IMG/VR virus record: IMGVR_UViG_3300030107_002792 | DNA length: 64,000 bases | Source: an uncultured virus (IMG/VR IMGVR_UViG_3300030107_002792) | Taxonomy: Duplodnaviria; Heunggongvirae; Uroviricota; Caudoviricetes; Kyanoviridae | Reading direction: 5' to 3' (one strand) | Shown: positions 183 through 29,984 of the stretch, in pieces | Position numbering within the stretch: position 1 is the stretch's first letter | How the letters are laid out: the number at the start of each line of letters is the position of its first letter | Made by a program: the position numbers and the translations under genes | The notes under the pieces: generated by a model | What the model saw: the letters and a program-made list of their open reading frames with translations, nothing else | Databases searched by the model: none | Told to the model about the DNA's origin: nothing

Positions 183-234
183 TAAGCATATATGTGGCGA
201 GCGATCCACAAATTAACGTAATTTAAGGTATTTT

Positions 235-1656: not shown

Positions 1657-2075
1657 TGGCATTAAAAGAAGTTTCTGGTAAGAAAGTAAACTTATCCCGT
1701 GCATTTAAAGATATTGCATTTGGGTTAAAACGTAATAGTATTACGAAGGATAGTGGTGTCGTTAAGAATGAGAATGCTATTAAACAAGCAATAAGGTGTT
1801 TAGTTCTTACACAAAAGGGAGAAAGATTGTTTCAACCCGATATTGGGTGTGCAGTATTTGAACTCTTGTTTGAACCCTTAGATCTTATGACTGCTGATGC
1901 AGTTAGAGATGAGATAATAAATACTCTTAATCAGTATGAGCCTAGAATTAGTCTAATCGATGTTACTGTTAACGTATCAGAAGTCTATAGTAGATTTGAT
2001 GTTACTGTAGAATATCGCATAGTTGGACAACCTATCGTTGAATCTGTCGATTTCGTATTAAAGAGACCTGAATAA
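1656..2075 (+). CDS. gp25: baseplate wedge subunit gp25
   Basis: 'NENAIKQAIRCLVLTQKGERLFQPDIGC...LLFEP...YEPRI' gp25 signature; directly upstream of gp6. Confidence 0.93.
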   Translation: MALKEVSGKKVNLSRAFKDIAFGLKRNSITKDSGVVKNENAIKQAIRCLVLTQKGERLFQPDIGCAVFELLFEPLDLMTADAVRDEIINTLNQYEPRISLIDVTVNVSEVYSRFDVTVEYRIVGQPIVESVDFVLKRPE

Positions 2076-10000: not shown

Positions 10001-13000
10001 AGTGTAACTGCAATTACTAAACTTTCTGATACTAGATTTGTTATAGGTGGTTATACAAATACAAACTCAACTAATCCTTTTGATGCATATATTGCTCTTA
10101 TTGATACAACAGGTAATTTTGCACTTAAGAGAAAGGTTGCAGGTACTACTACTTCAGAAAAAATTACTGGATTAGTTGTTAATGCTGGTAATGTTTATTT
10201 CTCTGTAGAGAGTGCTGCAAGTCCTAATGCTACTGCTATTGATCTTGGATTAGGTAAAGCAACAATTGGTACTAGTGCAATTAGTATTGATTATGTTAAA
10301 ACATATTCAAATACTTCATATTCATTCTTAGATTCCAGTATTTGTATTGATGAATTTAATGAAATTTATTTAACTGCAACTTGCAGACTTAAAGCAAATA
10401 ATACAACAAAGAATAGTTTCTGGGTTGGTAAAACAGATATTGATGGTAATCTTATTTGGAACTATAGGTATCAGATACCTAATGAAAGTGGCACAGAATA
10501 TGCAATTCAAGCAGTAAGTAAGACTGCAATTGATGTTTTTGGTGATCTTAACGTTGGTGTTACTTTAACAAGTGGAATTAACGGTCTTAAGACTGCAAGA
10601 TCCTTTAAGATTGGTTATAGTGGTAATCTTAAGGAACATTCATCTAATCTCTTCAATCTTAATAATGTTGAAGGTGTTACTATTAATTCGTTAGATGTTG
10701 ATAATTCTGGTGATGTTCATCTATATGGTCAATCTTCTTGGAATAGAAATGAATTCTTATTACCATTCACAGGTGGAGCAACAACAGATACAACTGGTCA
10801 TTATACTCCAACTATAGTAACTACAGGAGGTTCATTAAGTTATGAAAATACTGTCCAAGGTGGATATGCAAAAATACTCGGATCTCAACTTGCAAGTCCA
10901 ACTGTCTGGGAAAATGCTTACATTAAGTTCCCAGCTGCGGATCTTGGGACTAAACTTGGTGACGATTGGACTATAGAATTCTTCCTTTATAGGGATAGTT
11001 CAAATAGTAATGTATTCAGTCAAAATGAAGAAACTCTAATTTCTATTGGTGATGCAACAGTCACAACTGGTGGTCTTTGGTTATACTTTGAAATTAGTAC
11101 TGGTAAGATTGGATTAGCAGTTACTAATAATACTACTGCTTTAAATGCTGGAAGTGCTCAACTTAGCACAGCAACCACAATATATGCTACTAATACTTGG
11201 CAAACTATTGGATTAAAGAAAGAAGGAAATATATTTACTGTTTATAGTAATGGTATTCAAGTAATTCAATCTACAGTTCCTGATACTTCATTAGGTAGTA
11301 AAGATTTAGTTATTGGTAATATTTCTGGTAGAAGTGGAACTCTTAATAACTGGCGTTCAAATGAACAGGGTCAATACCATGTTGATAACTTACGTTTGAG
11401 AAACAGAGCAGTTACACCAACTGTTCCTAGTGATATTGGTGTTTTACCTCTTGCTGGAGCATTTTCAATTGGATATAATTGGGAAGATGATGCTTGGTTT
11501 ACTACTAACTTAAACAAGTTTGATTATATTGATTATACTGGTATTGGTATTAAAGTTGATAAGAATGCTGATGCTGCAAGAGTTGGTACTTATACAGAAA
11601 GAACTAATACTAAGTTAGGATTTATTAGAGCAGATGAAATAGGAACTACTATTACTCCTACATCACTTACTGTTGTAACAACAGGATTTGCATTAGCTGA
11701 TGCTGGATTCCAAGGTTTAGACTTTGATGATGCCACTATAACAATGGCTCAAGATACTGAGACTATGACCTATACTCAGGACGTATGGAGTTCTAGAACT
11801 GCTACTGTTCCTTCACCAGGTTCTCAGAAGTTATCTGTATCTGCTGTAGTTAAAGACAAATACTATTTCAAAGTAACTAATACTATAAAAATTGATAATG
11901 TTCAAGAACTTACTCTAAATCAGGCGTTTAATTTTACTACAGGAACAAAATTAAGACTTAATAATGATGCAGGAACCTTTGTTAATAGTGGATACATTAT
12001 CAGACAGGATACTACTAATAATAAAATATATCTTGCAATTAATAATAATGCTTGGTCTAATGATCTAAACACAGGTAACTTAGTTACAGAACAGTTTAGT
12101 GAGCAAAGCACTTATGGTATTGTTGGACCTATTCCTGCTGATGTTAATGAAATTGTAGGATATACATTTGCTCAGGTTAACAATACAACTCCTGGAACAT
12201 TTGATATTGATCTTGATGATTATAATTTAAGTGGTACTGGTTATAATGCAGGTGGTGGACAAGACCTTGATAGTTATGCTAAGTTTAAACCTTATTCTGA
12301 TAATGATTATTCAGTAAGAATTGATGAAGTTACTACTGGATCACCATATATCGTTGGTTCTGTTATTAATATTACCGATAGTAATATTTCATATAATGCT
12401 GCTTATTCTACTGCACAAATTACTGGTTTAACTGCAGTTACCAAAATTACATTAGTTGCAAATCTAACTAAGATTCTTCAAGTTAGTGCAGTATCTAATA
12501 GTGATGAAGTTTATGTAATTACTGGAACAAGTCATTACCTTTCTGCAGGTGAGATGATTTATGTTGATGGTAACCCAACAGAGAATAGTCTTGACGAGTA
12601 TGATGGTGCATTTGCTGTTAATTCTGTTGTAAGTCCATTAGAATTTACATATAAACTAAAACAGGTAGCAACTACTTCTCCTGCTACATCAGCAGGTAGC
12701 GTTAACATATTTGTTAAATCTCCTGTATTGAAGATGTATTATGGTCACCAGTACATCTTTGACATGAGTCATAGTTCATTACTTGGTGGTAACTTATCAT
12801 TCTCTAAAGATAACCTATACAAACTTGAATATTCATTCAACTCAATTGAAAGAACTGGAACTCCTGGTGTAAGTGGAGAAGGTGTTCCTACACCTATAGT
12901 TAAGTTAAAAGTTGATGATAATATTTTAACTAACATATCATACTACTTTGATCCTTCAAGAATTGGAGCAGATTCTCCAATTAATCCTTCTAGTTACCTA

Positions 13001-16000
13001 GATGTTACTAATTCTCCATATAAGGGAACATTCTCAATTAGTTCTGTTGCTGGTGCAACAATTACTCGTGGTGCTGATACATTCAAATTCCCTCTATTAG
13101 ATGAACCAGAAGGTGCTGCTGAAGTATCTCAGACAACTTATAGTACAAGTTCTGTTAAAGCAGTTGGATCTATATCTGATGTTCGTATTGTCAACTCTGG
13201 TGGATTCTACACTAGACTACCAATTGTAAGTAGTATTACTTCTACAAGACAGATTGAAAGAGTTGCTATTGAGGATCCAGGTACTGAATATGCTAATGGT
13301 GTTTATAACGCTGTTCCTATTGCTGGTAATGGTGAAGGTGGATTAGTTGAAATTACTGTTGCTGATGGATTAGACAGTGAAGGTGTAACTATTCCAGGTC
13401 AAATTCAAGCAGTTACAGTTACTTCTCCAGGTAAAAATTATACTACTGCATCAATTGATATTGAAGCAATACCTGGTATTCTTGGAGCAGGATTAACTGG
13501 TTCTGGTGCTAAATTAACTGTTGTTATTCCAAATGCAGGTACTCAGGCATCTATCTTTACTAAGGCAGATAAAGTTGGTAAGATTAAGAAACTTAAGAAT
13601 AATAACTTTGGTTATGATTATCCTCATGACTATACACTACGCCCTGAGATTTCGTTCCCAATAAACGCACAGCTTACTTCTACAAGTATTCTTTCTAGTA
13701 TTACTGTTACAAATCCAGGTTCTGGATATTCACAAGCACCTGCTGTTGTAATTACAGGTGGTGGTGGATCTGGTGCAACTGCAGAATCATCTATTAAGAA
13801 TGGTAGATTAGACATAATCATTGTTAAGGATCCAGGTGCTGGATATTCTTCTACACCAACTGTTTCACTTAAGTCTTCATTCAACTATGTTGTTAACCTT
13901 GACTTAGGTCTTTTACAGTTTGCTTTCCCACATGGTATTACAAATGGTGCTGCTGTAACTTTAAACGTAGTTGATACAGGAGATGGTGCTGATTTCCCAC
14001 TTGCTGCTGGTGCTGTTGGTCGTCTTAATGGAACTACTACTTATTATGCAATTTCTGGTGCTGCAAATTCACTAGAAAATGACCAATTAAAACTTGCTCT
14101 TACTGCAGCAAATGCTGAATTAGGTGACGCTCTTTCCTTTGTTAACGCTGGTGAAGGTCGTCAACAAGTATTAACTGAATCATTTGGTGGTTCTGCTACT
14201 GCAAACGTTATCACTTCTACTTTCTTAGAAGGAGAACTTGTTTATCAAGGTGATTCATTAGATACTGCAACTGCTACTGGATACGTTTCTACTAACCAAG
14301 GTTGGCAGATTGGACCTAGAATTCTTAAGATTGTTGATTATACTGGAACTTTCGCAGAGACACAAAAGGTTACTGGTGTTATTTCTAAGTCTTCAGGTAC
14401 TATTAGTGATTTAAATATTGCTCGTGGTGTTCTTGAAATTGGTTCTATCACTAAAACTACTGGTCAATTCATTGATGATGTTGGTAAACCATCTGAGATT
14501 ATTCAGAAGATCCAAGACTCTTACTATTATCAGGACTTCTCTTATGCTATTAAGTCTGCTGTTTCTATTAGTGAGTGGAAAGAGATTCTTATTAAGAACG
14601 TTCACCCTGCATCATTTAAGGTATTTGGTGAGTTAAATCTATCTGATTATGGATTTATTCCAAATAAAGATACAGATTTCCAACTTACTAAGTCTGTTGA
14701 ACTTGCAAGAGAAGCGATTGTTCCAAATATTCAAAGTTTTGCTCTTGTAGAACCAATTTACTCAGAATTTAATAATACAGAGGTTTTATTCCGTCAGAAG
14801 AGATTGACATCTTCTGAGAACATTTTGACTTCTGTTGTACAGAGAATTGATGATATTTCTGGTCAATTTGATGGTGAGAAGATTGCATTCCCTCTAACAG
14901 TTGATGGCAACACCGTTGTTGCTAACGCTAATCAGTTAATGATTGTTTTGAATGGTATTGTTCAGAACCCTGGAACTGCATTTGAGATTCAAGGTGATTC
15001 TATCGTCTTTAGTGAACCACCACAACCACCTGCAAGTGTTAAGTATGTTAATATTAAAATATCACAGATTGCAATTGTAAGTAATACATTTACTAACCAA
15101 AGTGGTATTTTCCCAAGTCCAGGTAATGTTTTAACTGGAACAAACTCTGGTGCTAAATTGACTGTAACTTCTGTTGTTGGTGATACTATATTTGGTTTCA
15201 TTACAGAAGGAACATTTATTGCTGCAGAAAACGTAACTGTTAGTGCAACTGGATTTAGTGCTAACTTAGATGTTCAAAGTAATGTTTCTAATATTGGATT
15301 ATTCCAGTATGGAGAACAAGTTAAGAACTTAACTAATGATACTGCTAAAGTAGAACAGATTAACCTACAAAGAGGTTTGGAAAATGCATTAGCACAATTA
15401 CGTTATACAGTTGGTCCTTCTACAACTTCAATAGAAGTAGTTCCTGATGGATCAACTACAGATGGTCCTGTTCCTGCTGGAACATTTACAACCAGTACAA
15501 GTTATCAACTTGGATCTGAAGTTGTTACTGTTACTAATATTGTTGATGGAAATGATTCAACAACTCTAACAGTTAGCAGAGGACAAAATGGAACAGTTGC
15601 TGTTTCACATCAAGAAGATTTCCCAATTTACGGAACTGTTATTGCAGTAACAGATGAACTTACTTTAAGTAAGACTGCTGGAACATATAAGTCTACTCCA
15701 GGTCTATTTGATATTCAATTAAATGATGTTATTATTGGTGCTAAATCTGGTGTTGTTGCTCGTGTTACTCAAACAAGTGCATATCAAGATCCTACAACTC
15801 AAGAATTTATAAGTCAGGTTAATATTTCTGAAGGATCATCATTCTTTGGTCTATTGATGAATAGAATTTCATCTACATCATATCCAAATATTGTTCTTGA
15901 TGATATTTCTAAATCACAAGTTAGTGTTGTTCAGTATACTGATAATACTACTGCTTTCAACTCACAGTTCCCTGCTAATGAACAACTTAATAATATCGTA

Positions 16001-19000
16001 GTTCCTTATGATAATCTAGTTGGTGGACCTATTCAAGAGAATGAAACTATTAGAAATTACAAACTTAAGTATGGTGGAAATACTGGTGAATTTATTGCTG
16101 GAGAAGGTGCGAGAGCAAGAAAACTTTCTTACATCAATCCTAAAGGTGATGGATTCTTTGCTAAAGGTCAAGTACTTAGAACTCAAGATACTAAAGCAGA
16201 AGTTCTTGGATTTAATCAGGCAGATCAGGTAATCTATCTTGGTAAAGTTGGTAGAACAAAGGCAAATGGTCAAGACTACCATATCCCATCATTCTCCAAT
16301 AGTGCTCAACTGGATACCACAGTCAAATACTATGGAACTGCTTCATTACAATTAGCAGCAGCAACTAACGATTATGTCACTATTCCTTCTTCAAGTGAAT
16401 TTGCTTTTGGAACAGGTGCATTTACTATAGATCTAATGTTGCGTCCTGCTGCATCTTCTATAAGTGGAACTGCTACTATACTTGATATGAGAGCATCTGC
16501 TGCGAATGAAGTTGCTGGTAGACTATACTTACAAGCAGGTCAAGTTCGTTGGAACGTTAATAATGCTGATATAGTTACTTCTGGTGCTACAGCTCTTACT
16601 GCAGATACTTGGGTTTATGTTTCCATTATGAAGTCTGGTACAACAACTAAGATTTTATTAAATGGAGTTGAAGCAGGTACAGCAACAGATAACACAACAT
16701 ATGTTGCAAAACCAATTAGATTAGGTTCTGATTATGCTGGTGCTAATAGTTTAACTGGATTCATTGATGAATTAAGAGTATCTAATACTAACCGTCATCA
16801 AACAATTCCATTTACTCCTCAGAATGGTATTTGGCAGGGTGATGCTAATACTAAGTTATTATTACACTTTGATGGTGCTGATGCTCAGACATGGACTGAA
16901 GATTGGTCTGGTGCAGAAGGATTTACTGCTGGTGAAGACTTTAATAATGATGCTATAATAGCTTCAACTCGTTCTTCTAATGCTACTCCTGGAGGATTTA
17001 CTGGTAATACTCAAAGATATTATGATGCTGCTGATTTAATTCTTCTTAATAAGGAATTCCTTGCTCAAGAAGTTGTTTATATTCTTAAAGAAAGACATCC
17101 TCATCACACTGTTAAGGGTAGTGAAGTTGATTGTGAAGATGATGTTCGTGATGTATTAGATGCTATTATTTCTGACCTTCGTAATGGAACAAATAATAAG
17201 ATCTGGGATGCATCTTCATACTATGTTGATAGAACATCATCTCCAATCGTATTGAAGTTTGTTTCTAATGAAGTTGATGAAGTAGTTTACACTTATGACA
17301 AACTTGAGGAAATGCTCAAGTATATTGTTAATAATACTCTTTGGGATGTTCAAGGTGATCATGGTTTAGTACAGAAGACTGATTCTACTATTACAGAAGC
17401 TAGTGGTTTAACCACACAAACCTTCCAGCCTACTGCTGCTGCATATGATGCAGAAAGTGGTTATATGGTATTGACTGCTTCTGGACATGGTATGAGAGCA
17501 GAAAGAGGAATTACTGCAACTGGTGCTGGTTATACTGCAACAACAGGTGTTTTACAATTAACCGTTGCTACTACCACATTTAGTGTATCTACTGCAACTT
17601 ATGACCATACAACTGGTGTTATGGTGATAACAATTGGTTCTCATAGTTTGACAACCAATGATAATATTAGAATTGCCACTGGTGGAATTACATTTAGTTG
17701 TAACAACGGTGGAGTTAGTACTGGTGCATATCCTCGTGCAAATGGTGCTAATACAGAGAGTGGTGCTGACTATGCATACGATAGATGGCTTCCAATCCTT
17801 GCTGTAGGTGCAACAACTATTACTGTTAATGTTAATGGTGGTAAGGGTGCTATTAGTCATGCCTTTGCACACACATATTCAACTTCTTCTGCAGGATGTA
17901 TTACTGCTGGTCATGGTCTTAATGATGGAGATAGAATCAAGTTTGATCCTAATTCTCTTGTAATGAATTGCACCTCTGATGGTAATACAGTTAATCAGAG
18001 TTATCCAAGACCTGATGATCCTGCTGCTCAAGGTTGGTTAGAAGTTACAGCAAATACTGGTACTACATTTGATGTAAACGTTGGTAAATCACCTACTGTA
18101 AATTATACAGCAAGTGCTGGAACTTATGATGCTGATACTGGTTTCTTAACCATGAATATTGGTCAGCATAACCTAAGAACTAGTAGAAAGTATACTGCAA
18201 CTAATGCTGATTACACTGCATCTTCAGGTGCAATGAAGATCACTATTGGTGATAATATTGATGTTCATGATGCAAGTTATGTTGCTAAGAATGGTTTATT
18301 AAAATTAAATATTGGTCATCACAACTTCAAACAAGGTAGTTTAGTTAAGATTGCTCCTAACTCACTATTCTTTACATGTAGTATGGATGATCATCAATCA
18401 GTTCATGCATATCCAAGATCATCTGATCCTGTTTACAATGATGATATTGAAGTTATTGATATAACTGATGATACTATTACTGTTGATGTGGGAACATCTC
18501 CAGAAGTTTCATATACACCTACTGGTGCAACTTATAACACCTCTACAGGTGACATGGTTCTTACCATTGGTGCTCATAGTTTAGCTGCTGGAACTAGTAT
18601 AAGACTTTTAGATGAATCTATAGCATTCAGTTGTAGTTTTGGTAGTGGTGGTACTAGTTCATATCCTCGTCCTACAGTAGACACTAAGAATGTTCAAACA
18701 GCATCTTATAATCCTCAAAGTGGTATATTATCCGTAACAACCACTGCTGCACATAACTTAACTGGTCCTACTGCTAAGAATGTTACTGATGCTACTTACA
18801 ATGCATCTACAGGTATTTTACAATTAGAATCTGCTGGTCATGGATTTAGTCTTGGTGATAAGATAAGAATTAAAGATGATGCTTTAGTGTTTACTTGCAC
18901 TAAAGATGGAAATGCAACAAACCATACATATCCAAGATCAACTGATCCTGTAAGTGGTCAATGGTTGACTATTGTTGCTAAAGCAACTGATACGATTGAT

Positions 19001-22000
19001 CTTCAAGTTGGTGCTTCTAAGATTGGTTTAAATGAATTTGCTCATACATGGGCTGGTGGTACTGCAAGTAATGCTATTGAAAAAGCAAATGATGTAATTA
19101 AGATTGTTGATGAGTCATTAACATTTACTTGTGCTATGGATAATAATGGCACTAACCATTTGTATCCACGTTCAACTGACCCAATTAGCGGTAGATGGTT
19201 AATTATTGAGAATGTTGCATCAACTACTTTCGATGTTCAAGTTTTAGATAACGCTCCTTCTACTAACACATCTGCTCATACATTTGTTACTGCTACAACT
19301 GGTGCTATTCAAGCTAAGAGAGACCCTGCTCAAGGAACTGCACTTCCAATTACTGCTGTAGGTGCAACAACTATTACTGTTAACGTTACCCCTGTTACTT
19401 CATATAGTTCAACAACTCATACATTCCAGTCTGCATCTCAAGGTGCTGTTAAGGTTGGTGGTGATTACACTCATAAATTTGTAGATGCTGCCTCTGGTGC
19501 TATTATTCCTAATCACGGATTCTATACTGGTGATAGAATTATGTTTGAGGAAGGATCATTAGTCTTTACTTGTGGTATGGATAGTGATGCTACTAGACAT
19601 GCATATCCAAGAGAAAGTGATCCATTCTATAATAAATGGTTGCCAATTAGTAGTGTAACTACAAATACTTTTAATGTTAATGTTGGAACAACTACTAATA
19701 CACAATTTACACCTACTGGAGGAACCTACGATGGAACCACAGGTAAATTAGGTATTACTATTGGTGCTCACACACTTGAAGTTGGTCAACATATTAAGAT
19801 TGCTACTGGTGGAATTTCATTCACTTGTGCAATGGATGGTGGTACTGCTGTTAAGGCATATCCTCGTGCAACTGATCCAGCAGACGGTGTTACTCTTCCA
19901 ATTCTTGAAAGAACTGATACTACTATTACTGTTGATGTTGGTCAATCACCTTATGTTTACTTTGATGTTTCTGCTGCTACCTACAACCCAACATCGGGTG
20001 TCATGGTACTTACAATTGGAGATCATGGATTAACTGCTAATACAAGTATTAGACTTAAAGATAATTCATTAACCTTTAGTTGTGATAATGGTGGTGTTGG
20101 AACTGGAACTTATCCTAGATCAAGTAATGACTACGTTTATCAGAAAGCAATTAATATTGATTCTGTAACTGATACTACAATCACAATTAATGTTAATGGT
20201 GGTCAAGGTGCTATTACTAACACCAATGCTCATACATTTGTAAGTGCTTTACCTGGAGCAGTTATTGCTGGTGGTGCTTGGGCTCATACTTATTCAACTG
20301 CTGCATCAAATGCAATTTCAGTTGGTGGTAACTATACTCATAACTTTAAATCTGCAACTCCTGGTGGCATAGTAAGAGCTGGTGAGACTATTAGAATTGC
20401 TAAAGATGGTATTTCATTCAAGTGTTCACAAGATGGATATCAAACAATTCATTCATATCCTAGAACAGATGATCCTGGATATAACACTTCTCTACCAATC
20501 TATAATGATGGAACATCTTATACTGCATCTAATGCAGCATATAATGCATCGACTGGAGAGATGGTTATCACTATTAATTCACATGGATTTACAACCAGTG
20601 ATCAAATTAGAATCGAAAATAATTCACTAACATTTACTTGTGTTAAGGATAGTAATACATCTATCCATAGTTATCCTAGAGATAACGATCCTTATGTTCG
20701 TAGATGGTTGAGAGTTAGTGCTGTTACTGAAAATACATTCACTGTAAATGTAGGTAAGGCATCATCCTCAACACAACAGTACGCACACACATTTGCTAGT
20801 GCTGCTAAGAATGGTATTACCAAACGTGATAATACTGTTACAGTTAACGTTGGTGCTACTCCAACTAAGAGTTTCACACCGACTGCATCAACTTATAATC
20901 CTTCAACTGGTGCTTTAGCATTAACTATTGGATCACATAGTCTACCAGCTCCAACCACACATACACCAACTGATGTTGCATATAATCCAACAACAGGTAT
21001 TATGACTCTTACTATTAATGGTCATAACTTCTCTAATGGTGAAAAGGTTAAGATTGCTGATGGTGGATTGAAATTAAGTTGTGCATTTGGTGGTGCTTCA
21101 GGTGGTGCTGCACAGAAAGATTACCCACGTTCAACTGACCCAATTAGCGGTAAGTGGATTCCTATTTCTGGTGTAACTACAAATACATTTGATGTTCAAG
21201 TTCTAGATGTAATTCCTTCTACAAATACTGACACTCATTCATTCGTATCTGCTGTTACTGGATGTGTAAGTAAAGCAAATTCAACAGTTAAGATTGCTGA
21301 GAATTCACTAGTTTATAAGTGTGCTGAAGATAGTAATGCTACTGAACATGCTTATCCAAGAAGCAACGTTGCTACTCATACAGCAGGACCAGGAACAAAT
21401 TATAATCCTGTTACAGGTGTTCTAAAACTTAGTGTTCCTACAGAAAGTCATACACCTTCCACAGCAACATATAACCCAACAACGGGTGATATGGTTCTAA
21501 CTCTAGATTCAACTTCTGGAACATTTAATGTTTCTAATGCAACTTATAACACCTCTACAGGTGATATGGTACTTACTATTGGATCTCATAGTTTAACCAC
21601 ATCAAATAGAATTAAACTTAAAGAAGGATCTTTGAAGTTTGCATGTAACTTTGCTAATGATAATTATCAGACTGCAAAAGCATATCCAAGAGCTTCAGGT
21701 GCTAATACTACTAATGGTGCTGACTATGCATATAATACATTCTTACCAATTACCGCAGCTGATGCTACAACTATTACTGTCAATGTTAATGGTGGTCAAG
21801 GTGCTATCAGTAACAATAATCAGCATAACTTCTTAACTGCTGATGCTGGTGCAGTTATTGTTGGTCATGGACTAGAAGTTGGTGATAGAATTAAGATTGC
21901 TGATGAATCATTAACCTTTAGTTGTGATAATGGTGGTGTTGGAAATGGTTCATATCCTAGATCATCTAATGACTATGTTTATCGTAAGTGGATTAGAATT

Positions 22001-25000
22001 AGAGCAGTAACTGGAACTACTATTACTGTTAATGTTAACGGTGGACAAGGTGCTATTACCAATACTAATGCTCATACATTTGTATCTGCTACTGCTAATT
22101 GTATAACCTCTGGTCATGGAATGACTAATGGGTCTCCAATTAAGATTGCTGATAGTTCACTATCATTCAGTTGCACTGAAGGTAGTGGTGGTACATATGC
22201 ATACCCAAGAGCAACTGACCCAGTTTCTAAGAGATGGTTATTCATCAATAATGTAACTGATTCATCATTCGATGTTAATGTTCTAGATACAATTCCTTCA
22301 ACCAATGTAACTACACATACATGGATTAGTGCTGTTGCTAATGGTATTATTGAAGGTGATCCTATTGTCGGACAAGCAGTTCCTGTTGAATCTGTAACTT
22401 CTACAACTATTACAATTAATCCTCTTGATGGTGATGTTCCAACTAATACATCTGCTCATACATTTGAGAAGTTAAACACATATCAATTCCAACCATCTGC
22501 TATTACTTACACTCCATCGACAGGTGTAATGTCAGTAACTTCAACAGCTCATAAGATTGAAGAAAATGATAAGATCTTTATTAAGGATAATTCACTTTCA
22601 TTCAAGTGTAATATGGGTGATGATGCTGGTATTCATACTTATCCTCGTGAGTCAGATCCAGTTTCTAATAAGTGGATCACTGCTACCAATGTAACTGCAA
22701 ATACATTTGATGTTAATGTTGGTGCTACACCTAATATCTTCTTCACTCCTTCTGATGCGACATATAATCCAACAACAGGTATTATGTCACTTACGATTGG
22801 TAATCACGATCTAAGACCTGGTAGTAGTGTTAAGTTAAGTCAAGAATCATTAACATTTAAGTGTGCTCATGATTCATATGCAACTAACCATTCATATCCA
22901 AGAAATACAATATTAACTCACACACCAACTGATGCTGATTATCATCCTGATACAGGTATCATGACATTGACTGTCAATAATCATAAGATGGGTGATGGTG
23001 ATTGGGTCAAGATTGCTGATGGTGCTGTAACATTCAAATGCACATATGGTGCTGGTGTTCATACATGGACTGGTGGTACTGCAACTGGTGCTGTTCAAGT
23101 TCAAGAAGCAGGTTTAGGAAACTTTGATGTTACTGGTGCTGACTATAATGCCTTAACAGGTGATATGGTATTGACAGTTGGATCTCATTCAATTACAACT
23201 GGTAACACAGTTAAGATTGTTGCTAACTCATTAACATTCAGTTGTGATCTTGATGCTAACGCAACGAACCACACATATCCTCGTGCAACTGACCCTGCAT
23301 ATGATACTGCTCTTGCAATATCTGCTGTAAGTGGTACAACAATTACAGTTAACGTTGGTGTAAGTTCACCTGGAACTGCATATCCTCGTGCTTCTGATCC
23401 TGTTAGTGGTAAGTGGATTAAGGTATCTAATACAACTACAAATACATTTGATGTTCAACTTTTAGACATCGTTCCTTCAACAAACACAAGTATTCATACA
23501 TTTGTTTCTGCTGTTACTAATGGAATTAGTCAGAAGAAAGATAGTGCTTATGATTCTCCAATTGAGATTGTTGATACTACTGCTACAACTATTGATCTTA
23601 AAGTTGTTAAGAAATTACCTTCAACAAACACAACCAATCATATATTTGTATCTGCTGCATCTAATGCGGTCATATCTGGTGGTTCATATACACACACCTT
23701 TGTTACAGCAGACCCAGATGCTATTACTAGATCTATAGTACATACTGGTGGTAATTATAATCATGTATTTACATCATCCTTGACTGATGGTGTAATAACT
23801 GGTGGTAACTATGTTCACACCTTTGTATCTGCTGAAACTAACGGTATTAAATGTGCTGGTGATTCAGTTTATCTAACTCCTGGATCACTTACATTTAAGT
23901 GTGCTCAGGATAATTATGATAGACCTACTGCATATCCTAGAACCACAGATCCTTCTTACAATCAACTATTAGAAATTAAAGAGGTAACTGGTGATACATT
24001 TACTATTGATGTTGGTGCTGCTGCAGATAAGAATCAATATGCTCATACATGGGTAAGTTCTGCACAGGGTGCTGTTAAGAAGTCTGATTACAATCTTAGA
24101 GATTGCACAGATGTATTCACTACAGTTGGTAACTTAGTTGACATACTTACAGATACACTAACAAATGCTAATGCAACTCCTGTTGTTGATCATCTAGCAA
24201 GTGTTACTAAGGTTACACCACCTTATAAGTTCTACGGTGCAACTGTTGATGCATTTAATGAGACTCCATTCCCAGTATCATATCATAGTTCTGCTAACGA
24301 TATTATCGTTACAAATCAAATTGATGAAGATACTCAATATAGATTCCGTGATGCTGCATACTTAATTCGTGCAAATGCTGGTGTTATCGTTGATAAGGCA
24401 TCATATGATATGCTTCAACGTTATCCAGATCTTGCTATTAGTATGCCAAGAAATGCTAATGGAACATCTACAGATGGTACTGTTCGTTGTAAGCAAGATT
24501 TACTTGAGATCGTTACTGCAATTGCTACTGATCTTGAAAATGGTGGTAACTTACAGACACTAAAAGCTGCTAAGTTCTATATCGGTGTTAACGGTGGATT
24601 ACAGCATATTCGTTTACAAGTATTCCAATCTGCATACGCACATACTCGCCTTGGAGTTTATCTTAAGCAAGCAATTACAGGTGATTTAACATACGATAAT
24701 ACTGATAATATTATTGTTCGTGACTGGGGTATTACTGATAATAGTAGTTCTGGTAACTGTGCTAATGTTCAAACTGCTATTGACACATTAATTACATCAG
24801 TTAATGATTTAATTGCACCTACAGATAGTGATTACGCACTTGCTGCAGATAGACTTTACTTCAATAAGGACTTCATTGCTGAAGAAATTACTGGTCTTAC
24901 AACCGCATACTTCACTTATGCATTGAATGGTGTTAATTATTCAGCACTTACATATCCTGGATCTACTGGAGAAACCACATGTCGTAGAGACCTTAAGTTA

Positions 25001-28000
25001 ATCTTAGATGGTATTATATCTGATTTACAAACTGGTGGTAATGAAAGTACTATTATTGCAATGGAGACATATTTGAGTGCTACATTGCAAATTGAGCAAG
25101 TTGATGATGAATTAGCAGCAACTATCTACGCTATTGATAGACTAAGACATATCGGTGAATTTGCTATTAAGGATAAAGTATTCTCACAAAATGAAGGATC
25201 AGGTGCTGCTGATGAATATGAAGCAGTTCATACTAACAGAGCAGAATATAGAGATGGATTAAGTGCAACTAATAATATCCTCAATCCTGTTTATCATTAC
25301 CGTGATCTTTGCGATATCGCAATTAATATTCTCGCTCCTGGTGGTAAGGCAGCAAGAAGTGCTGTTAAGCAACTTAAGTACAACCAAAATTACTATAAGG
25401 AAGAATTAACTACTCTTGTTAATTCACAGTTTGGTGCTGGATCTTGGACTTATAATACATTCATTGATGAAATGGTTGGTAATACTGTCCATGACATCAT
25501 TACAACTGACTTTAATAAGACAAGAATTGCTTACACTATACAATTATCTAATACATTCAATGAATATGTTGCTGGAGAAACTGTTGTTTCTAGTAACAAT
25601 GGTAAAGCAACTGTTCTAGAGTGGAATAGTGATGAAGAGATATTATATGTTTCTTCATGGACTGGTAATAAGTTTGAACCAACTCAGATATTAATTGGTG
25701 CAGATTCTAATGCATATGGAACTGTTGCTGCTAATGGAGTTAGTGCTCCATATACTTGGTATACAGAACCTGCTAATCTTAAAGCTATTAATTCTGCAAG
25801 ATTAATTACTTCTAATATTGCTGGTCAAATTGCTGGAACTAATATAGCATCTAACTCAGAAAACTTTACAACTGGATGGACAAATACAGGTACGTCTGTA
25901 TCTGCAGATCAACTTGATTCACCAGATAGCACAGCTACTGCAGATAAGATAATTGCTACTGCTGTTGCAGGTGAACACTTTATTCATCAAAACTTCTCTA
26001 TTAGTGCTTTTGAAACATTTGATAGTGATGCAGTTAAGTTTGATAACACTAATGAAACATTTGACACTGGTGCTGTTGGAACTGCTCAATCTCAGCAGTA
26101 TACATTCTCAGTCTTCTTGAAGAAGGGTGAATTTAATAGAGTTCGTGTTCAAATGGGTCTTGATACTGGAGCTGCTGGTGAACAGTTAGCATTCTTCGAT
26201 CTTAACCTTACAGATGGAACATTTGGTGGAATATTCACTCCTGGTAATGGTATTACGATTGATGCTTTTGGAACTATTCCTTATGGTAATGGTTGGTATA
26301 GAGCATACATTACAGGTACATTCTCCTTCGGATTTGGTGAAATTAGACCACTAATTTATGTTAGAGATGCTGCAGGTAATGCTCAGTATACTGGTGACGG
26401 TAGTTCTGGAGTATATGTTTGGGGTATGAAACTCTTTAAGGGTATTCTTGATCCTTATCAATCTGCTGCTGGTCAGGTATTCTATGCTGATACAGAGTAT
26501 AACATTAAGACTTACGCATTAGATCTATTACAAGATTATATGATTAAGGCACTTACAGGATCTCTAATATCACCTTCCACAAACTCAGGATTCTATTCAT
26601 ACTTTGATAATACACTTGATACTGATTATAAGTATCGCTCAATTGAAAGATTAGTTAGATATAACTTAAATATTATTCGCGAACAATTAACAGTTGATAG
26701 TTACTATACAACTCTTACTACAACGAATGGAGTTTCTATTCCTACTAAGACTTATGGAACTAGAAGTATTCCCGCAGGTATTACTGGTGGACTACAAAAT
26801 TCAATTTATGTTTATGGACTTCAAAGTGATGCTAATGCTGAAATTGAAGAAATTAGTGAGAACTCAGGTAAGGTTGTTCAAGTTTACCAGAGATTTAGAA
26901 TTGATGGTGATATAACTGACGGTCCATTCACTATGAATGAAGTAGTTGCTAAACTCGGTAATAATTCTATTACTGGTGTTGTTTATGGATACCATTTTGA
27001 TGAGAACTACAAGTACCTAGATGTTAAAGTTACTGCTGGTCCTTGGGCAGTTACAGACCAAGTTGTTGGTGCTACTAACTCAACTACTGCACAGATCAGT
27101 GCTATAGAAGATAGACTTCATATCATTGATGTTAAGGGACAATTTGAGAATGATATCCCATTCAAGGGTTATGCAAGTTCTGCTACAGCATCACCTACTG
27201 GTTACATTAAGGCAGAAGCTTCTATAACAGATAACACTGGTGGAACATTAACCGTTGATACTGAATCATTAACAGGAACATTTGAAGCAACATCTGTTGT
27301 TTACCCATCATCTTCGAGACAATATATAGACGTATCTAAATACGCTGGTCTTGATATAACGGTTGGTGATAGAATTGCTTCGGGTGGATATAAGAGATTT
27401 GGTATTTCTGTTCTAAGTGGACTTAATAGTTTCACTCAAGGTAATAGACTTTATAAGGTTGTTTCTGGTATTCAAGATCCTCTCACATACGGTATTATCA
27501 CTGAAGTTGATCTTGATAATAGTTACATCTATGTCGCAGAATACCAAGGAACATTTACGCAGGGTGATGTTATAGGTGACTATGGCACAAATGCTTCGTT
27601 CCCGATTGGTTACGCAACAATTCTAACGATTGTTACTACTCAAGGTGCTGCTGCAGGACTCGTACAGGATATTCGTGATATTGCTCTGAATAAGAGAATA
27701 TATCTCACAGACGTAGCAGGAACATTTGACGATAAAGATTACATTATCGGTCCTGACGCTTACAGGTCTGTAGTTCTTGGAATCACTGAAATTAAGGCAC
27801 GTGTTAAGCGTTCCTTCAAGGGATTTGATGGAACTACAACTACGTTCCCACTAACAATTAATACAGGAACATCTTACTTACCTGATCCTGCAGGTCATAT
27901 GTTAATATTCCTTAATGGTATTCTACAACCTCCAGGCGCAACTAACGCATATACAGCGTTCTCCAACCAGATTCAGTTTACTGAAGCACCAGAACTAGGT

Positions 28001-28757: not shown

Positions 28758-29984
28758 ATGGCTAAACAACTATTAAGTCTTGGTACTAATGCTAACGACA
28801 ACACGGGGGATACTCTCCGTGCTGGCGGTGATAAAGTTAATGACAATTTCAATGAACTATATACTGCTCTAGGTAATGGTACAGATTTAACCATTAGTCT
28901 CGCTTCTGCAGGTAGTGGTCAGGTATTACGTTATAATGGAACAAACTTTGTTGCTTCCGATTATTTAAATCTAACATCTGCTTTAGATGTTAATAGTAAC
29001 TCAATCATATCATCTTCCAATGGTAATATTAATATTGCTCCTAATGGAACTGGTAATGTAACTATTGGTAATGGTAGTATTACTAATACCTTTAACGGAA
29101 CTGATGGAACGATTGATTTTCCAACTAAAGTAAAATATAAAAATGAATTCAGCACACTTGCTGGTGCTCCTGCTGCTGCAACATACACAGGATATTTCTT
29201 TACAGTTGATGGTGATGACAACCCATATGTAAACATTAATATTACTGCTGGTGGTGCTGGTGATGTGCAAGCAAAAGTTTTAACACAGTATTCTAGTGTT
29301 GATCTTTTAAAAGATATTGATATTACTACTGCAGCACCTACTGAGGGACAAGTTCTAAAGTGGAGTGTTAGTGGAGGTAAATTTGTTCCTGGTGATGATG
29401 CTGCTGGTGCTAGTCAACAAAACCTATGGGCAACTTTTGGTGGTGATACTGGTACAACAAGTGCTAATACTACAACAGATACATTAACCATTGCTGGTGG
29501 AACTAATATTGCAACAGCAGTATCTGGTGATACACTCACAGTAAACTTTGATGGTACACTTGTTACAACATTAGCATCTTTAACGGACGTTGATGTTTCT
29601 AGTGTTGTTCAAGGTGATTCTTTATTTTGGAATGGAACTCAATGGACTAAAACAAGAAGTCCTATTACATGGTGGGAGTTAGGTTCTAACGGAAGCACAG
29701 ACTATACTTTTGATGGACCTGGATTTGCTTCTGCAACTAATGACCCAACTCTTTATGTGCATAGAGGTTTTACCTATGCTTTTGATAATACTACAATGGG
29801 TGGTGCTCATCCATTTAGAGTACAGAGCACACAGGGTTTAACTGGAACTCCATATACTGCTGGTCAATCTGGTAGTGGAACTAGTGTTCTCTATTGGACT
29901 GTTCCTATGGATGCTCCAACAACACTGTATTATCAGTGTACACTCCATGCATCAATGCAAGGACAAATTAACGTTGTAAGTTGA
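28758..29984 (+). CDS. baseplate/tail-fibre connector-like protein (gp9-like N-terminus) with C-terminal cupredoxin-like domain
   Basis: N-terminal 'MAKQLLSLGTNANDNTGDTLRAGGDKVNDNFNELY' is the gp9/gp10-type motif; C-terminal 'AHPF...LYYQCTLHASMQG'. Confidence 0.75.
   Translation: MAKQLLSLGTNANDNTGDTLRAGGDKVNDNFNELYTALGNGTDLTISLASAGSGQVLRYNGTNFVASDYLNLTSALDVNSNSIISSSNGNINIAPNGTGNVTIGNGSITNTFNGTDGTIDFPTKVKYKNEFSTLAGAPAAATYTGYFFTVDGDDNPYVNINITAGGAGDVQAKVLTQYSSVDLLKDIDITTAAPTEGQVLKWSVSGGKFVPGDDAAGASQQNLWATFGGDTGTTSANTTTDTLTIAGGTNIATAVSGDTLTVNFDGTLVTTLASLTDVDVSSVVQGDSLFWNGTQWTKTRSPITWWELGSNGSTDYTFDGPGFASATNDPTLYVHRGFTYAFDNTTMGGAHPFRVQSTQGLTGTPYTAGQSGSGTSVLYWTVPMDAPTTLYYQCTLHASMQGQINVVS

What the first reader, a model, noticed from the sequence alone, without database searches (positions are those of the whole stretch)
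17420..24085. Recursively nested ('matryoshka tree') array of 21 domains inside the giant baseplate protein
Seen in sequence: aa 4445-6666 of the 8214-aa ORF consist of one ~105-aa module with three parts. A = (F/Y)xxxxAxYNPxTGxMxLTIGxH; B = GDxIKIxxxSLxFxC...YPRxxDP...WLxI...TITVNV; C = HTFVSAxxxA(I/V). I count 21 A, 21 B (21 Cys, 21 YPR) and 21 C parts, but not in ABC-ABC order. They parse as balanced brackets: A1 A2 A3B3C3 B2 A4 A5 A6B6 A7B7' A8 A9B9C9 B8C8 B7''C7 C6 B5 A10B10 A11B11C11 C10 C5 B4' A12B12C12 B4'' A13 A14B14C14 B13' A15 A16 A17B17C17 B16C16 B15C15 B13''C13' A18B18 A19B19' A20B20' [C21A21B21] B20''C20 B19''C19 C18 C13'' C4 C2 B1C1. Two internal checks support the parse. The four A parts that stop before the His (2, 5, 15, 16) are exactly those whose B part resumes with H-G-x. 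Modules cut after YPR (7, 13, 19) resume at DP/DS. Maximum depth is 8, and several modules carry 2-3 daughters in different loops. Inference: the protein grew by repeated insertion of whole modules into surface loops of sibling modules, and should fold as a branched tree rather than a linear fibre, giving a multivalent dendritic appendage on the baseplate. I do not know of a description of this architecture, but could not search for one.
Basis: partly seen in the sequence, partly recalled or inferred. Interest (0 to 1): 0.95.

Follow-up and report, generated by a model that had tools for sequence, protein, structure and literature searches.

The report
Self-nested beta-barrel tree in cyanophage gp7
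A giant baseplate protein of a marine cyanobacterial virus carries 21 copies of one small beta-barrel domain, 20 of them inserted into loops of other copies up to eight levels deep, so that a single chain encodes a branched tree of domains instead of a string of beads.

Summary
Residues 4446-6666 of the 8214-residue gp7-like ORF (4088..28732) are 21 copies of a ~103-residue module. A profile built from only the 6 uninterrupted copies splits the region into 40 pieces that obey a strict last-in-first-out parse: 21 modules, depth 8, no leftover. No shuffle out of 10^6 parses.

All 21 rejoined modules score as full-length domains. AlphaFold2 folds one module as a 10-stranded barrel (pLDDT 96), and all seven classes of insertion site fall in its loops. 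A three-level sub-tree folds at pLDDT 83. Known single barrels superpose on three model ranges that match the bracket partners.

Relatives carry 1, 4, 5, 8, 11, 17, 18, 21 or 23 modules at this place. The whole array sits inside one barrel that is intact in 36 of 80 related loci. Two other assemblies and four independent runs reproduce the order of parts.

The principle is not new: the Si3 insertion of cyanobacterial RNA polymerase is a solved six-level case. I found no paper describing it for a phage particle, and this array is deeper and branched. Function is inferred: a size-variable side-branch, probably adhesive. This scan noted the same build earlier in at least eight other cyanophage genomes.

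The parts
4088..28732 (+). Giant gp7-like baseplate wedge / virion structural protein ORF, 8214 aa
   Evidence: ORF list. Pfam Baseplate_wedge PF23786 at aa 685-729, 37 bits against a cut-off of 27, plus YHYH and Laminin_G_3. PHROG 701 is colinear over aa 3-4439 and again over the C-terminal part. Orthologues are annotated 'similar to gp7'.
17423..24085 (+). The nested array, aa 4446-6666: 21 modules in 42 pieces
17423..17512 (+). Module 1, part A (opens the outermost barrel)
   Evidence: hmm 1-28. Orthologous to the N-terminal third of the intact module of relatives.
23855..24085 (+). Module 1, parts B and C (close the outermost barrel 2114 residues later)
   Evidence: hmm 26-102; alignment with intact modules of relatives
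17513..17578 (+). Module 2 part A. Its B part is 17909-18103 and its C part 23801-23854.
17579..17908 (+). Module 3, contiguous leaf inside module 2 (site ~24)
   Evidence: full-length hit. Absent as a 113-aa block from L063 and L095.
18104..18190 (+). Module 4 part A. B' is 20378-20506, B'' is 20828-20872 and C is 23747-23800. It hosts modules 5, 12, 13 and possibly 18.
18191..20377 (+). Sub-tree of module 5 (modules 5-11, depth 4 to 8). The pieces are A5, A6B6, A7B7', A8, module 9, B8C8, B7''C7, C6, B5, A10B10, module 11, C10, C5.
20507..20827 (+). Module 12, contiguous leaf in the beta7-beta8 hairpin of module 4. This is the module that was folded alone.
   Evidence: AlphaFold2 pLDDT 96, pTM 0.88
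20873..22468 (+). Module 13 (A, B', B''C') with daughters 14 and 15-16-17. A last short piece of 13 may lie at 23729-23746.
21368..22357 (+). Sub-tree 15(16(17)), aa 5761-6090. This is the three-level nest that was folded.
   Evidence: AlphaFold2 pLDDT 82.9, pTM 0.72. Three classes of barrel superposition fit the bracket partners.
22469..23728 (+). Sub-tree 18(19(20(21))). Module 21 (23057-23374) is circularly permuted, C before A-B.
2075..4075 (+). gp6-like baseplate wedge subunit, upstream neighbour
   Evidence: phrog_219, E 8e-220
28758..29984 (+). gp9-like baseplate wedge / tail fibre connector, downstream neighbour
   Evidence: phrog_677; annotation of orthologues
34969..36501 (+). gp8-like baseplate wedge subunit
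   Evidence: phrog_438

Best explanation
Shown in silico.

Residues 4446-6666 of the gp7-like baseplate wedge protein of a T4-like marine cyanophage are 21 copies of one ~103-residue, 10-stranded beta-barrel. Its invariant residues are a His at the end of part A, the FxC Cys, the YPR motif, and the His of HTF. Only 6 copies are uninterrupted and 1 is circularly permuted. The other 14 are split by whole copies inserted into their loops.

The chain opens barrels on the way out and closes them in reverse order on the way back:
(1 (2 [3] 2 (4 (5 (6 (7 (8 [9] 8) 7) 6) 5 (10 [11] 10) 5) 4 [12] 4 (13 [14] 13 (15 (16 [17] 16) 15) 13) (18 (19 (20 [21] 20) 19) 18) 4) 2) 1)

Insertions use a few loops only. 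In profile positions these are ~20-28, ~45, ~56, ~69, ~83-85 and perhaps ~94. Junctions are tight (median 2 residues), so the ends of each barrel must lie together at the host loop.

The array grew and shrank by in-frame gain or loss of whole modules or sub-trees. The whole array is an excursion from the beta3-beta4 loop of a single ancestral barrel, and that barrel is intact in many relatives.

Inferred.

The chain returns to where it left. The conserved flanks are the LamG-like domain upstream and the 1548-residue C-terminal region. They therefore keep their mutual position whatever the size of the array. The array is a side-branch of adjustable size, not a spacer.

With multiple daughters on modules 2, 4, 5 and 13 it should be a branched object with 7 leaf barrels. 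Taking T4's one gp7 per wedge and six wedges per baseplate (recalled knowledge), that gives 126 barrels per virion.

The most likely role is weak, multivalent adhesion to host surface or envelope glycans, or to pili, at the periphery of the baseplate. I put about 0.4 on this role. The architecture itself is much more certain than the role.
For: Parse:
- The HMM was built from 6 contiguous modules only.
- The automatic stack parse gives 21 modules, depth 8, 0 flagged pieces.
- 0 of 10^6 shuffles parse under each of two null models.
- 21 of 21 rejoined modules are full-length hits.

Fold:
- Single module: pLDDT 96, pTM 0.88, 10 strands.
- The window's 20 insertion sites, and 299 events counted in 396 distinct modules of related loci, cluster at profile positions 20-34, 45-49, 55-59, 65-79 and 80-89. 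These correspond to the loops of that model.
- Three-level nest: pLDDT 82.9, pTM 0.72. The 'orphan' A15 and A16 pieces have pLDDT 83-87.
- All 50 of 50 listed structural matches of that model are single barrels of 64-90 aligned residues. They fall into three range classes: 48-51..166-167 (11 rows), 24-28..247-250 (16 rows) and 1-5..330 (23 rows). These are the limits of module 17, of A16+B16C16 and of A15+B15C15.

Evolution:
- Isolate genomes carry 1 module (S-RIM2, S-SM1, ACG-2014a, S-CAM22), 4 (P-RSM1, Syn19), 8 (Syn30, S-P4) or 11 (P-SSM3, P-RSM3).
- Of 80 IMG/VR loci with a complete 5' side, 36 have one intact module and 44 have 4-23 modules. Of those 44, 29 parse without any flag.
- A1 and B1C1 align with the two parts of the intact module of relatives. 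Their separation is 296 to 2117 residues in different phages.
- Pairwise alignments to L063 and L095 (57-58% identity) differ by blocks of 113, 103 (85+18) and 223 aa at module limits.
- The A part and the B+C part of a relative's module pick the same window module in 15 of 36 cases, where about 1 in 21 is expected (P about 3e-11). Of those 15, 14 are the positional orthologue.

Not an artefact:
- L015 and L017 come from other metagenomes and have the same 21-module topology at 91% and 88% identity.
- Contigs of four runs from four other studies tile the region with 0-13 differences per piece and bridge the unusual junctions.
- DNA repeats are only 60-76% identical, at most 91% over 46 nt.
- Module pairs have a median identity of 38% and a maximum of 67%.
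Against: - No coordinates of the models were available to me. Pairing of bracket partners rests on first and last aligned residues and aligned lengths, not on a contact map.
- Only an unbranched three-level chain was folded. Its outermost module had just 6 sequences in the alignment, and residues 111-116 are below pLDDT 50.
- 15 of 44 multi-module relatives gave 1-5 flagged or unclosed pieces with my simple parser. Most trace to one diverged module.
- Leaves are not more variable than hosts among close relatives: 0.90 against 0.87 identity to L017, Spearman rho 0.08 with depth. This gives no sign of tip-directed diversification.
- Baseplate location and copy number per virion are carried over from T4, not tested here.
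Confidence: 0.87

Rival explanations
1. The architecture is the same, but the role is not adhesion. The tree is an inert structural decoration: a bumper, a spacer between baseplate and cell surface, or a shield of the baseplate periphery. Its size drifts because gains and losses are nearly neutral.
For: - Copy number varies from 1 to 23 among related phages, while the flanks stay colinear and conserved.
- Leaves are no more variable than internal modules.
- No match to a known binding family reaches its threshold.
- The nested topology makes growth harmless to the flanks, which would allow drift.
Against: - Three lineages 84-91% identical keep all 21 modules and the same topology. All modules keep the invariant His, Cys, YPR and His. 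That argues for purifying selection on every copy.
- The best fold matches include the inserted barrel of phage endosialidases. That barrel is a sugar-binding accessory domain by recalled knowledge.
Confidence: 0.3
2. The pieces do not pair as nested brackets within one chain. A parts would be completed by B/C parts of another module or of a neighbouring gp7 chain, a domain swap. This would cross-link wedges instead of building a tree.
For: - Recursively inserted domains of the RNA polymerase Si3 region are reported to exchange secondary-structure elements in some cases (passages of PMC11515920).
- All A parts are homologous, so swapping is sterically conceivable.
- I had no contact map.
Against: - The order of pieces is strictly last-in-first-out, with matching profile coordinates at 19 of 19 resumptions.
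- Linkers are 0-9 residues, median 2.
- The AlphaFold2 nest gives three barrels whose limits are the bracket partners.
- A and B+C parts of a bracket pair share their orthologue.
- Relatives have the same barrels uninterrupted.
Confidence: 0.05
3. Artefact: a repeat-rich region was misassembled from short metagenomic reads, so the odd order of parts is not real.
For: - The window comes from a metagenome assembly.
- No long-read run was among the 24 runs listed.
- Laid contigs break into pieces of 159-1828 bases, and short 'joints' with 20-26 letters on one side are listed.
Against: - Repeats are only 60-76% identical at the DNA level, too diverged to collapse.
- The same 21-module order occurs in two other assemblies that are 88-91% identical, so they are not copies.
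- Nested arrays occur in sequenced isolates: P-SSM3, P-RSM3, Syn30, S-P4, P-RSM1, Syn19, S-TIM4.
- Contigs from four other studies bridge the junctions with 0-13 differences.
- The ORF is open for 8214 codons.
- The listed joints all have sides under 30 letters. The tool itself attributes such joints to repeats or other organisms.
Confidence: 0.01

Closest known systems
Si3 insertion in the trigger loop of cyanobacterial RNA polymerase beta' (RpoC2): recursively inserted SBHM / HABAS domains
   Same: - Copies of one small beta domain are inserted into loops of other copies of the same domain.
- The chain folds back and completes the interrupted domains.
- The expansion is lineage-specific, starting from a simple form.
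- It is solved by crystallography and cryo-EM: 8 SBHMs, 4 of them built from distant parts of the chain, forming a 150 A elongated body (passages of PMC10895346).
- It is described as recursive insertion (passages of PMC11515920).
- A survey of 2.7 million domains gives it as the six-level example of complex nesting (abstract and passages of PMC13114784).
   Different: - The domain is different. No RNA polymerase chain is among the 50 listed structural matches and there is no Pfam match.
- The protein is a different kind: a virion baseplate protein, not an enzyme.
- There are 21 modules and 8 levels, against 8-9 domains and 6 levels.
- Branching is extensive, with 7 leaves.
- Copy number ranges from 1 to 23 among related phages, whereas Si3 is roughly fixed within cyanobacteria.
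- I have no evidence here for exchange of strands between domains.
Beta-barrel domain inserted into the propeller of phage endosialidases (phi92, K1F; Pfam End_beta_barrel PF12195), and the FCCH barrel of ubiquitin E1 (PF16190)
   Same: - Both are small barrels that occur as insertions in a host domain.
- Both Pfam families turn up as sub-threshold hits in 3 of 84 modules each.
   Different: - No hit reaches a family threshold; the best E-values are 0.032 and 0.012.
- Those are single insertions into a different host fold, not self-insertion.
Tandem arrays of small beta domains (Ig-like, FN3, BIG) on phage virion proteins, and tandem arrays of this same module
   Same: - Accessory beta domains on tail or baseplate proteins vary in copy number. 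They are thought to give weak adhesion (recalled from the literature on Ig-like domains of phages; not read here).
- This very module also occurs as plain tandem arrays of 9-10 copies in other proteins: P0008, P0009, P0012.
   Different: - Tandem arrays are linear and lengthen the chain between their flanks.
- Here the copies are nested, the flanks stay together, and the object is branched.
T4 gp7 baseplate wedge protein
   Same: - There is a Pfam Baseplate_wedge match in the N-terminal part.
- The gene order is gp6-like, this ORF, gp9-like, a wedge subunit, gp8-like.
- Orthologues are annotated 'similar to gp7'.
   Different: - The ORF is 8214 aa, against about 1000 aa in T4 (recalled).
- Only 45 residues match the 284-position profile.
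- The nested array has no counterpart in T4.

Membership tests
T4 gp7-type baseplate wedge protein | Sequence match to the family model above its curated threshold | tested here: met
   PF23786 Baseplate_wedge, E 3.4e-9, 37 bits against a cut-off of 27. The match covers only aa 685-729, profile positions 177-221 of 284. PHROG 2885 and 708 'baseplate wedge subunit' also match.
T4 gp7-type baseplate wedge protein | Position in the wedge gene cluster next to gp6, gp8 and gp9 homologues | tested here: met
   phrog_219 (gp6-like) lies upstream. phrog_677 (gp9-like), phrog_708 and phrog_438 (gp8-like) lie downstream. Nine isolate genomes show the same order.
T4 gp7-type baseplate wedge protein | Physical presence in the baseplate wedge, one copy per wedge | not testable with these tools
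   This needs virion proteomics or cryo-EM of a cultured relative.
Recursive homotypic domain insertion (the Si3 kind of architecture) | A domain is interrupted by a whole copy of the same family and resumes afterwards (A1-B-A2) | tested here: met
   14 of 21 modules are split. There are 19 resumptions with profile coordinates continuous within -5 to +4.
Recursive homotypic domain insertion (the Si3 kind of architecture) | Inserted copies are themselves hosts (two or more levels) | tested here: met
   Depth is 8 along the path 1-2-4-5-6-7-8-9.
Recursive homotypic domain insertion (the Si3 kind of architecture) | The separated pieces of a host form one folded domain | tested here: met
   This is in silico only. 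The AlphaFold2 nest has pLDDT 82.9. Single barrels superpose on model ranges 24-250 and 1-330 with 64-90 aligned residues. Relatives have the same barrels intact. No experimental structure exists and I had no contact map.
SBHM / HABAS domain (the building block of Si3) | Sequence or fold match of the module to that domain | tested here: inconclusive
   No RNA polymerase beta' chain is among the 50 listed rows of the search over 48,161 chains. No Pfam family matched at E 0.01. No profile-profile comparison with an SBHM alignment was made.
Endosialidase beta-barrel domain (Pfam PF12195) | Sequence match above the family threshold | tested here: not met
   3 of 84 modules match at E up to 1, the best at 0.032. 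None is significant.
Endosialidase beta-barrel domain (Pfam PF12195) | Same fold | tested here: inconclusive
   [not shown]
Ubiquitin E1 FCCH domain (Pfam PF16190) | Sequence match above the family threshold | tested here: not met
   [not shown]

The most novel reading that the evidence does not exclude
This would be the largest and deepest self-nested domain architecture on record: a single polypeptide that encodes a branched 'dendrimer' of 21 barrels, up to 23 in relatives. It evolves like a growing tree, by in-frame gain and loss of whole modules at a handful of permissive loops. Nesting leaves the flanks in place, so the phage can tune the size and valency of a baseplate appendage without touching baseplate assembly. 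One invariant residue comes from each of the three parts: His at the end of A, Cys in B, His in C. These may meet in a metal site that clasps the separated pieces together. Folding must run inside-out, with up to eight barrels open at once.
Probability: 0.4. Interest if true: 0.88.

Novelty: new variant of a known kind. Interest (0 to 1): 0.8.

Why it matters
For protein evolution, this is a natural series. Related phages carry 1, 4, 5, 8, 11, 17, 18, 21 or 23 modules, so recursive domain insertion can be watched step by step, with its hot-spot loops, a circular permutant and clean indels. It exceeds the six-level case that a 2026 survey of 2.7 million domains gives as its example of complex nesting (abstract of PMC13114784).

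For protein folding, it poses a sharp problem. Up to eight barrels are open while more than 2000 residues are still to be made.

For protein design, it offers a barrel that has adjacent termini and five or six insertion-tolerant loops.

For phage biology, it points to a large structure at the baseplate periphery that varies between lineages and has not been imaged in the most abundant marine myoviruses. That structure may bear on adsorption and host range.

Tried and rejected
Tools that did not run:
- Complex prediction on A1 against B1C1 (alignments A4 and A5) was not available, so no interface test was made.

Searches that found nothing useful:
- PDB by sequence gave no meaningful match, either for one module (best E 0.51) or for the profile of 84 modules (best E 0.024, an unrelated carbonic anhydrase).
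- Pfam gave no family at threshold for the array. The only row was Fn1_2 at 18.8 bits against a cut-off of 27. Scanning 84 modules at E up to 1 gave scattered sub-threshold rows only.

Hypotheses tested and not supported:
- If new modules were copies of their own host, host and guest should be more alike. They are not: 0.378 against 0.390 identity, permutation p 0.79.
- If tips were diversifying, leaves should be more variable. They are not.

A flaw I corrected: lost one module per genome because two siblings in the same loop received the same label. One search repeats them with all modules, and I quote only.

Results that were uninformative:
- The pairwise alignment to the one-module locus L019 put the whole gap at the end. 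For L021, paralogy split the gap into 52 + 2058 aa.
- My parser fails on more diverged proteins of the family, such as P0064 and P0144. The depths it printed there (17-25) are artefacts of unclosed modules.
- The joints listed when contigs were laid all have 20-26 letters on the shorter side. I take them as cross-matches between paralogous modules or strains, not as alternative forms.
- The search of earlier findings by place returned nothing for this genome.

Literature: searches found no paper describing nested modules in a cyanophage or other phage virion protein. Subscription journals and supplementary files were not searched.

Full report
**Context.** The window is part of a T4-like marine cyanophage genome. 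The ORF 4088..28732 (+) encodes 8214 residues. A gp6-like wedge subunit precedes it. A gp9-like connector, another wedge subunit, a gp8-like subunit, large structural proteins, neck proteins and the tail sheath stabilizer follow it. Its N-terminal part matches Pfam Baseplate_wedge (aa 685-729, 37 bits against a cut-off of 27), YHYH and a LamG-like domain (aa 4093-4236). PHROG 701, a 6136-position 'virion structural protein', is colinear with aa 3-4439 and again with the last ~1000 residues. The finding's region lies in between and matches only as many repeated stretches. Orthologues in isolates are annotated 'similar to gp7'. The finding's coordinates 17420-24085 are aa 4445-6666.

**Checking the observation.** YPR occurs 21 times in the protein, and all 21 lie in aa 4548-6616. 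I aligned only the six modules that looked uninterrupted and built a profile from them. It gave 34 hits in aa 4446-6666 and 2 weak ones elsewhere. Each hit covers either the whole profile or a defined part of it, and the pieces tile the region with gaps of 0-27 residues that contain the short A- or C-type pieces.

I rejoined the pieces according to the bracket reading inside a script. All 21 of 21 modules then gave a single full-length hit (82-161 bits, 99-113 residues). The 15 interrupted or permuted modules had no part in building the profile.

A simple automatic stack parser opens a module when a piece starts at profile position 10 or lower. Otherwise the piece must continue the most recently opened module within 12 positions. 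On the window's own contig this parser gave 21 modules, depth 8, no flagged piece and no unclosed module (locus L014).

At the 19 resumptions the coordinate continues within -5 to +4 positions. Of 1,000,000 random orders of the 40 pieces, none parses. Of 1,000,000 permutations of the 19 continuation pieces among their own slots, none parses.

Three small corrections apply:
- The region has 25 Cys, of which 21 are at the conserved position.
- Module 21 is a circular permutant.
- The place of module 18 is open.

**The module.** An alignment of 84 uninterrupted modules came from the window and from IMG/VR loci, with rows kept below ~85% identity to one another. In it the Cys, the Pro of YPR and the His of HTF are invariant. 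The Tyr and Gly of the YNxxTG turn, the His at the end of part A, the Tyr and Arg of YPR, and the Asp of DP are at least 90% conserved.

AlphaFold2 folds module 12 with this alignment at mean pLDDT 96 and pTM 0.88, as ten beta strands. Foldseek against the PDB gives nothing at E 0.001 or better. The best rows are phage endosialidases (4hiz_A, TM 0.54, rmsd 3.8) and ubiquitin E1.

Two sequence results point the same way:
- Scanning the 84 modules against Pfam at E up to 1 gives no hit at threshold. E1_FCCH and End_beta_barrel each appear in 3 of 84 modules. This echoes the fold matches but proves nothing.
- The PDB holds no sequence relative.

In BFVD, the same fold is predicted in pieces of cyanophage 'baseplate wedge initiator', 'tail protein', 'long tail fiber' and 'structural protein' entries (TM 0.85-0.95, 24 rows at E 0.001 or better). 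In 1.84 billion representative proteins, the profile finds 767 at E 0.001 or better, many with 5-30 matched stretches. The family is therefore small and typically multi-copy. Some members carry plain tandem arrays of 9-10 modules (P0008, P0009, P0012), so nesting is not forced by the domain.

**Insertion sites.** In the window the 20 insertions lie at profile positions 20, 20, 21, 24, 25, 25, 27, 28, 45, 56, 56, 57, 69, 83, 83, 83, 83, 84, 84 and 85. Model residue number equals profile position plus 4. The sites then fall:
- between strands 18-22 and 33-36,
- between 41-45 and 53-56,
- between 53-56 and 68-73,
- at the 73/77 hairpin,
- between 77-81 and 94-99.

The possible site at ~94 lies between the last two strands.

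Over 396 distinct closed modules of related loci, 299 insertion events fall into the same clusters: 90 at positions 20-34, 3 at 45-49, 28 at 55-59, 45 at 65-79 and 133 at 80-89. None falls at 1-19, 35-44, 50-54 or 60-64.

Junctions between aligned pieces have a median of 2 and a maximum of 9 unaligned residues. The two ends of an inserted barrel must therefore meet at the host loop. The permuted module 21, whose C and A parts are joined by nine residues, says the same.

**Do bracket partners form one domain?** I folded aa 5761-6090, the pieces A15, A16, module 17, B16C16 and B15C15. The alignment had 25 natural sequences: 5 orthologous three-level nests and 19 two-level nests of the same topology. 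MAFFT placed the two-level nests on the inner two levels.

The model has mean pLDDT 82.9 and pTM 0.72. The first 50 residues (A15, A16) are at pLDDT 83-87. It has about three times the strand pattern of a single module, and only residues 111-116 are below pLDDT 50.

All 50 listed matches are single small barrels with 64-90 aligned residues, and their first and last aligned model residues fall into exactly three classes:

| Class | Model range | Rows |
|---|---|---|
| Inner | 48-51 to 166-167 | 11 |
| Middle | 24-28 to 247-250 | 16 |
| Outer | 1-5 to 330 | 23 |

The bracket reading puts module 17 at 53-165, A16 and B16C16 at 28-52 and 166-248, and A15 and B15C15 at 1-27 and 249-330.

**Comparative evidence.** The 1548 residues after the array are 46-68% identical in 16 listed kinds of cyanomyovirus, and they anchor the comparison. 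At the same distance from the C-terminus:
- S-RIM2, S-SM1, ACG-2014a and S-CAM22 have one intact module.
- P-RSM1 and Syn19 have 4 modules nested 4 deep.
- Syn30 and S-P4 have 8.
- P-SSM3 and P-RSM3 have 11.

In IMG/VR, 80 loci have a complete 5' side. Module counts are:

| Modules | 1 | 4 | 5 | 6 | 8 | 10 | 11 | 17 | 18 | 21 | 23 |
|---|---|---|---|---|---|---|---|---|---|---|---|
| Loci | 36 | 11 | 12 | 1 | 3 | 2 | 4 | 1 | 1 | 8 | 1 |

The single 6-module locus has a doubtful anchor. The eight 21-module loci fall into three different topologies and include the window's own contig. Of the 44 multi-module loci, 29 parse with no flag. The other 15 have 1-5 flagged or unclosed pieces, mostly because one diverged module loses its middle piece.

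In the lineages related to the window, the whole array lies inside module 1, split at profile position ~26-30. Its A and B+C parts are 296, 314, 737, 1048, 1692 and 2115-2117 residues apart in different phages. Both parts align with the two parts of the intact module of one-module phages.

The trees share a backbone: module 1 hosts module 2 at ~27; module 2 hosts the next module at ~85; that module carries daughters at ~27, ~69 and ~84. They differ by whole modules. Against L063 (17 modules, 58% identity over 1747 columns), the window has extra blocks of 113 aa (module 3), 85+18 aa (one module at 10/11), 223 aa (modules 16+17) and 91 aa (module 21). It lacks a 118-aa module that L063 carries in the A part of module 18. 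Against L095 (11 modules) the extra blocks are 113, 107+313+210, 223 and smaller ones.

As an independent check of pairing, I compared modules of L095, L063 and L077 with the window's modules. I asked separately which window module the A part (21 columns) and the B+C part (75 columns) resemble most. They agree in 15 of 36 cases, against about 1 in 21 expected (binomial P about 3e-11), and 14 of the 15 are the positional orthologue.

Other lineages (S-TIM4, L020 and six more loci) keep module 1 intact and carry a separate nest just upstream. Another structural protein, in phage Sf-FR1, has nests four deep. Nesting has therefore arisen more than once.

**Not an artefact.**
- Direct DNA repeats in the region are 60-76% identical, at most 91% over 46 nt.
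- Module pairs are 27-67% identical at the protein level, with a median of 38%.
- L015 and L017, from other metagenomes, have the same 21-module topology at 91% and 88% identity over the array.
- Twenty of 24 listed public runs from 11 studies hold part of the stretch. Leaving out study P1, the study of the possible source run, five runs from four other studies (X2 and X4, X3, X6, X7) hold 91-96% of its sampled words.
- Contigs of X2, X3, X6 and X7 cover all 30 bins. Pieces such as 17420-18955, 18928-20095 and 21915-23413 have 0-5 differences and run through many of the unusual junctions. No insertions or deletions are listed. The listed joints have only 20-26 letters on one side.
- No long-read run was on offer.

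**How it most likely works.** Shown in silico: the region is a tree of 21 barrels encoded by one chain, with barrels opened in order and closed in reverse order.

Inferred from this:
- The array is an excursion from one loop of module 1. The conserved regions before and after it are therefore in the same relation in a 1-module and a 21-module phage. The array is a side-branch, not a spacer, and its size can change without disturbing the rest of the protein. This explains why copy number is so variable while the flanks are conserved.
- Modules 2, 4, 5 and 13 carry 2-4 daughters in different loops, so the object must branch. It has 7 leaves, and its longest path is 8 barrels.
- The solved Si3 region shows that nested small barrels can form a rigid elongated body (passages of PMC10895346).
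- Folding has to proceed from the inside out, with up to eight barrels incomplete at one time.
- Growth is by in-frame insertion of module-length DNA at loop-coding sites. The permuted module 21 fits a copy taken with shifted limits from two adjacent modules. Hosts and guests are no more alike than other pairs (0.378 against 0.390), so the copies are old and the source of each insertion cannot be named.

The function is not shown. I favour weak multivalent adhesion at the baseplate periphery. The reasons are the location, the resemblance to inserted accessory barrels of tail proteins, and the conservation of all copies in close relatives. TEM of T4-like cyanophages docked on pili by their base structures has been reported, without identification of the proteins (passages of bioRxiv 10.1101/2025.09.20.677514). 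An inert structural role is a serious rival. Leaves are not more variable than hosts.

**Comparison with what is known.** Domain insertion is common and nested insertion is known. A 2026 survey of 2.7 million classified domains describes most cases as single-level. Its example of complexity is a six-level recursive arrangement of eight domains in the Si3 region of Prochlorococcus RpoC2 (abstract and passages of PMC13114784). That region is made of one repeated domain inserted into itself (passages of PMC11515920) and has been solved (passages of PMC10895346). The kind of architecture is therefore known.

What differs here is the domain, the setting in a virion protein, the scale (21 modules and 8 levels, up to 23 modules in a relative), the branching, and a natural series from 1 to 23 modules. 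Six literature searches found no description of it for a cyanophage or any phage particle protein. Only open-access full text and bioRxiv were searched, and no supplements.

Notes of this scan, which are unchecked AI notes, report the same build in at least eight other cyanophage genomes and name the same closest relative. I saw them after reaching my reading, and they agree with it.

**Verdict.** This is a new variant of a known kind, of high interest for protein evolution, folding and phage structure. The three-dimensional shape and the function remain to be shown.

Noticed in passing
window 15812-15964 (aa 3909-3959 of the giant ORF): There is a weak, partial match to the middle of the module (profile 28-78) about 490 residues upstream of the array. 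At a comparable place, S-SM1, syn9, S-CAM22, Syn19 and Syn30 carry a circularly permuted copy (C then A-B) that the window lacks.
   Followed up: partly
L020, L083, L089, L090, L105, L107, L109 and S-TIM4 (L013): In these lineages module 1 is intact, and a separate five-module nest (depth 3) lies 100-500 residues upstream of it. Nested arrays have therefore arisen at more than one place in gp7.
   Followed up: partly
L012 (Synechococcus phage Sf-FR1, CDS SfFR1_80): A different structural protein carries the same module nested four deep, always at the B/C loop.
   Followed up: no
P0008, P0009, P0012: Proteins of 3693-5709 aa carry 9-10 uninterrupted copies of the module in plain tandem. They are a natural contrast to the nested form.
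   Followed up: no
window 17423-24085, every module: One invariant residue comes from each of the three parts: His at the end of A, Cys of FxC in B, His of HTF in C. The YPR motif is also invariant. A metal site joining the three parts is conceivable but could not be tested without coordinates.
   Followed up: no
window 4088-17419 (aa 1-4444 of the giant ORF): The N-terminal part holds a YHYH domain (aa 1365-1544) and a LamG-like domain (aa 4093-4236). It also has several other internally repeated PHROG matches, for example phrog_460 in 9 stretches and phrog_2885 in 8. I did not examine whether these are also nested.
   Followed up: no
window 44263-52077: A 2604-aa structural protein matches phrog_697 in 11 stretches, so it is another repeat-rich virion protein. 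This stretch has a higher G+C (0.38-0.41) than the 0.33-0.39 upstream. Two antisense ORFs of 153 and 257 aa inside it are probably not genes.
   Followed up: no
window 720-1346: A 2OG-Fe(II) oxygenase gene (phrog_81) lies just upstream of the baseplate gene cluster.
   Followed up: no
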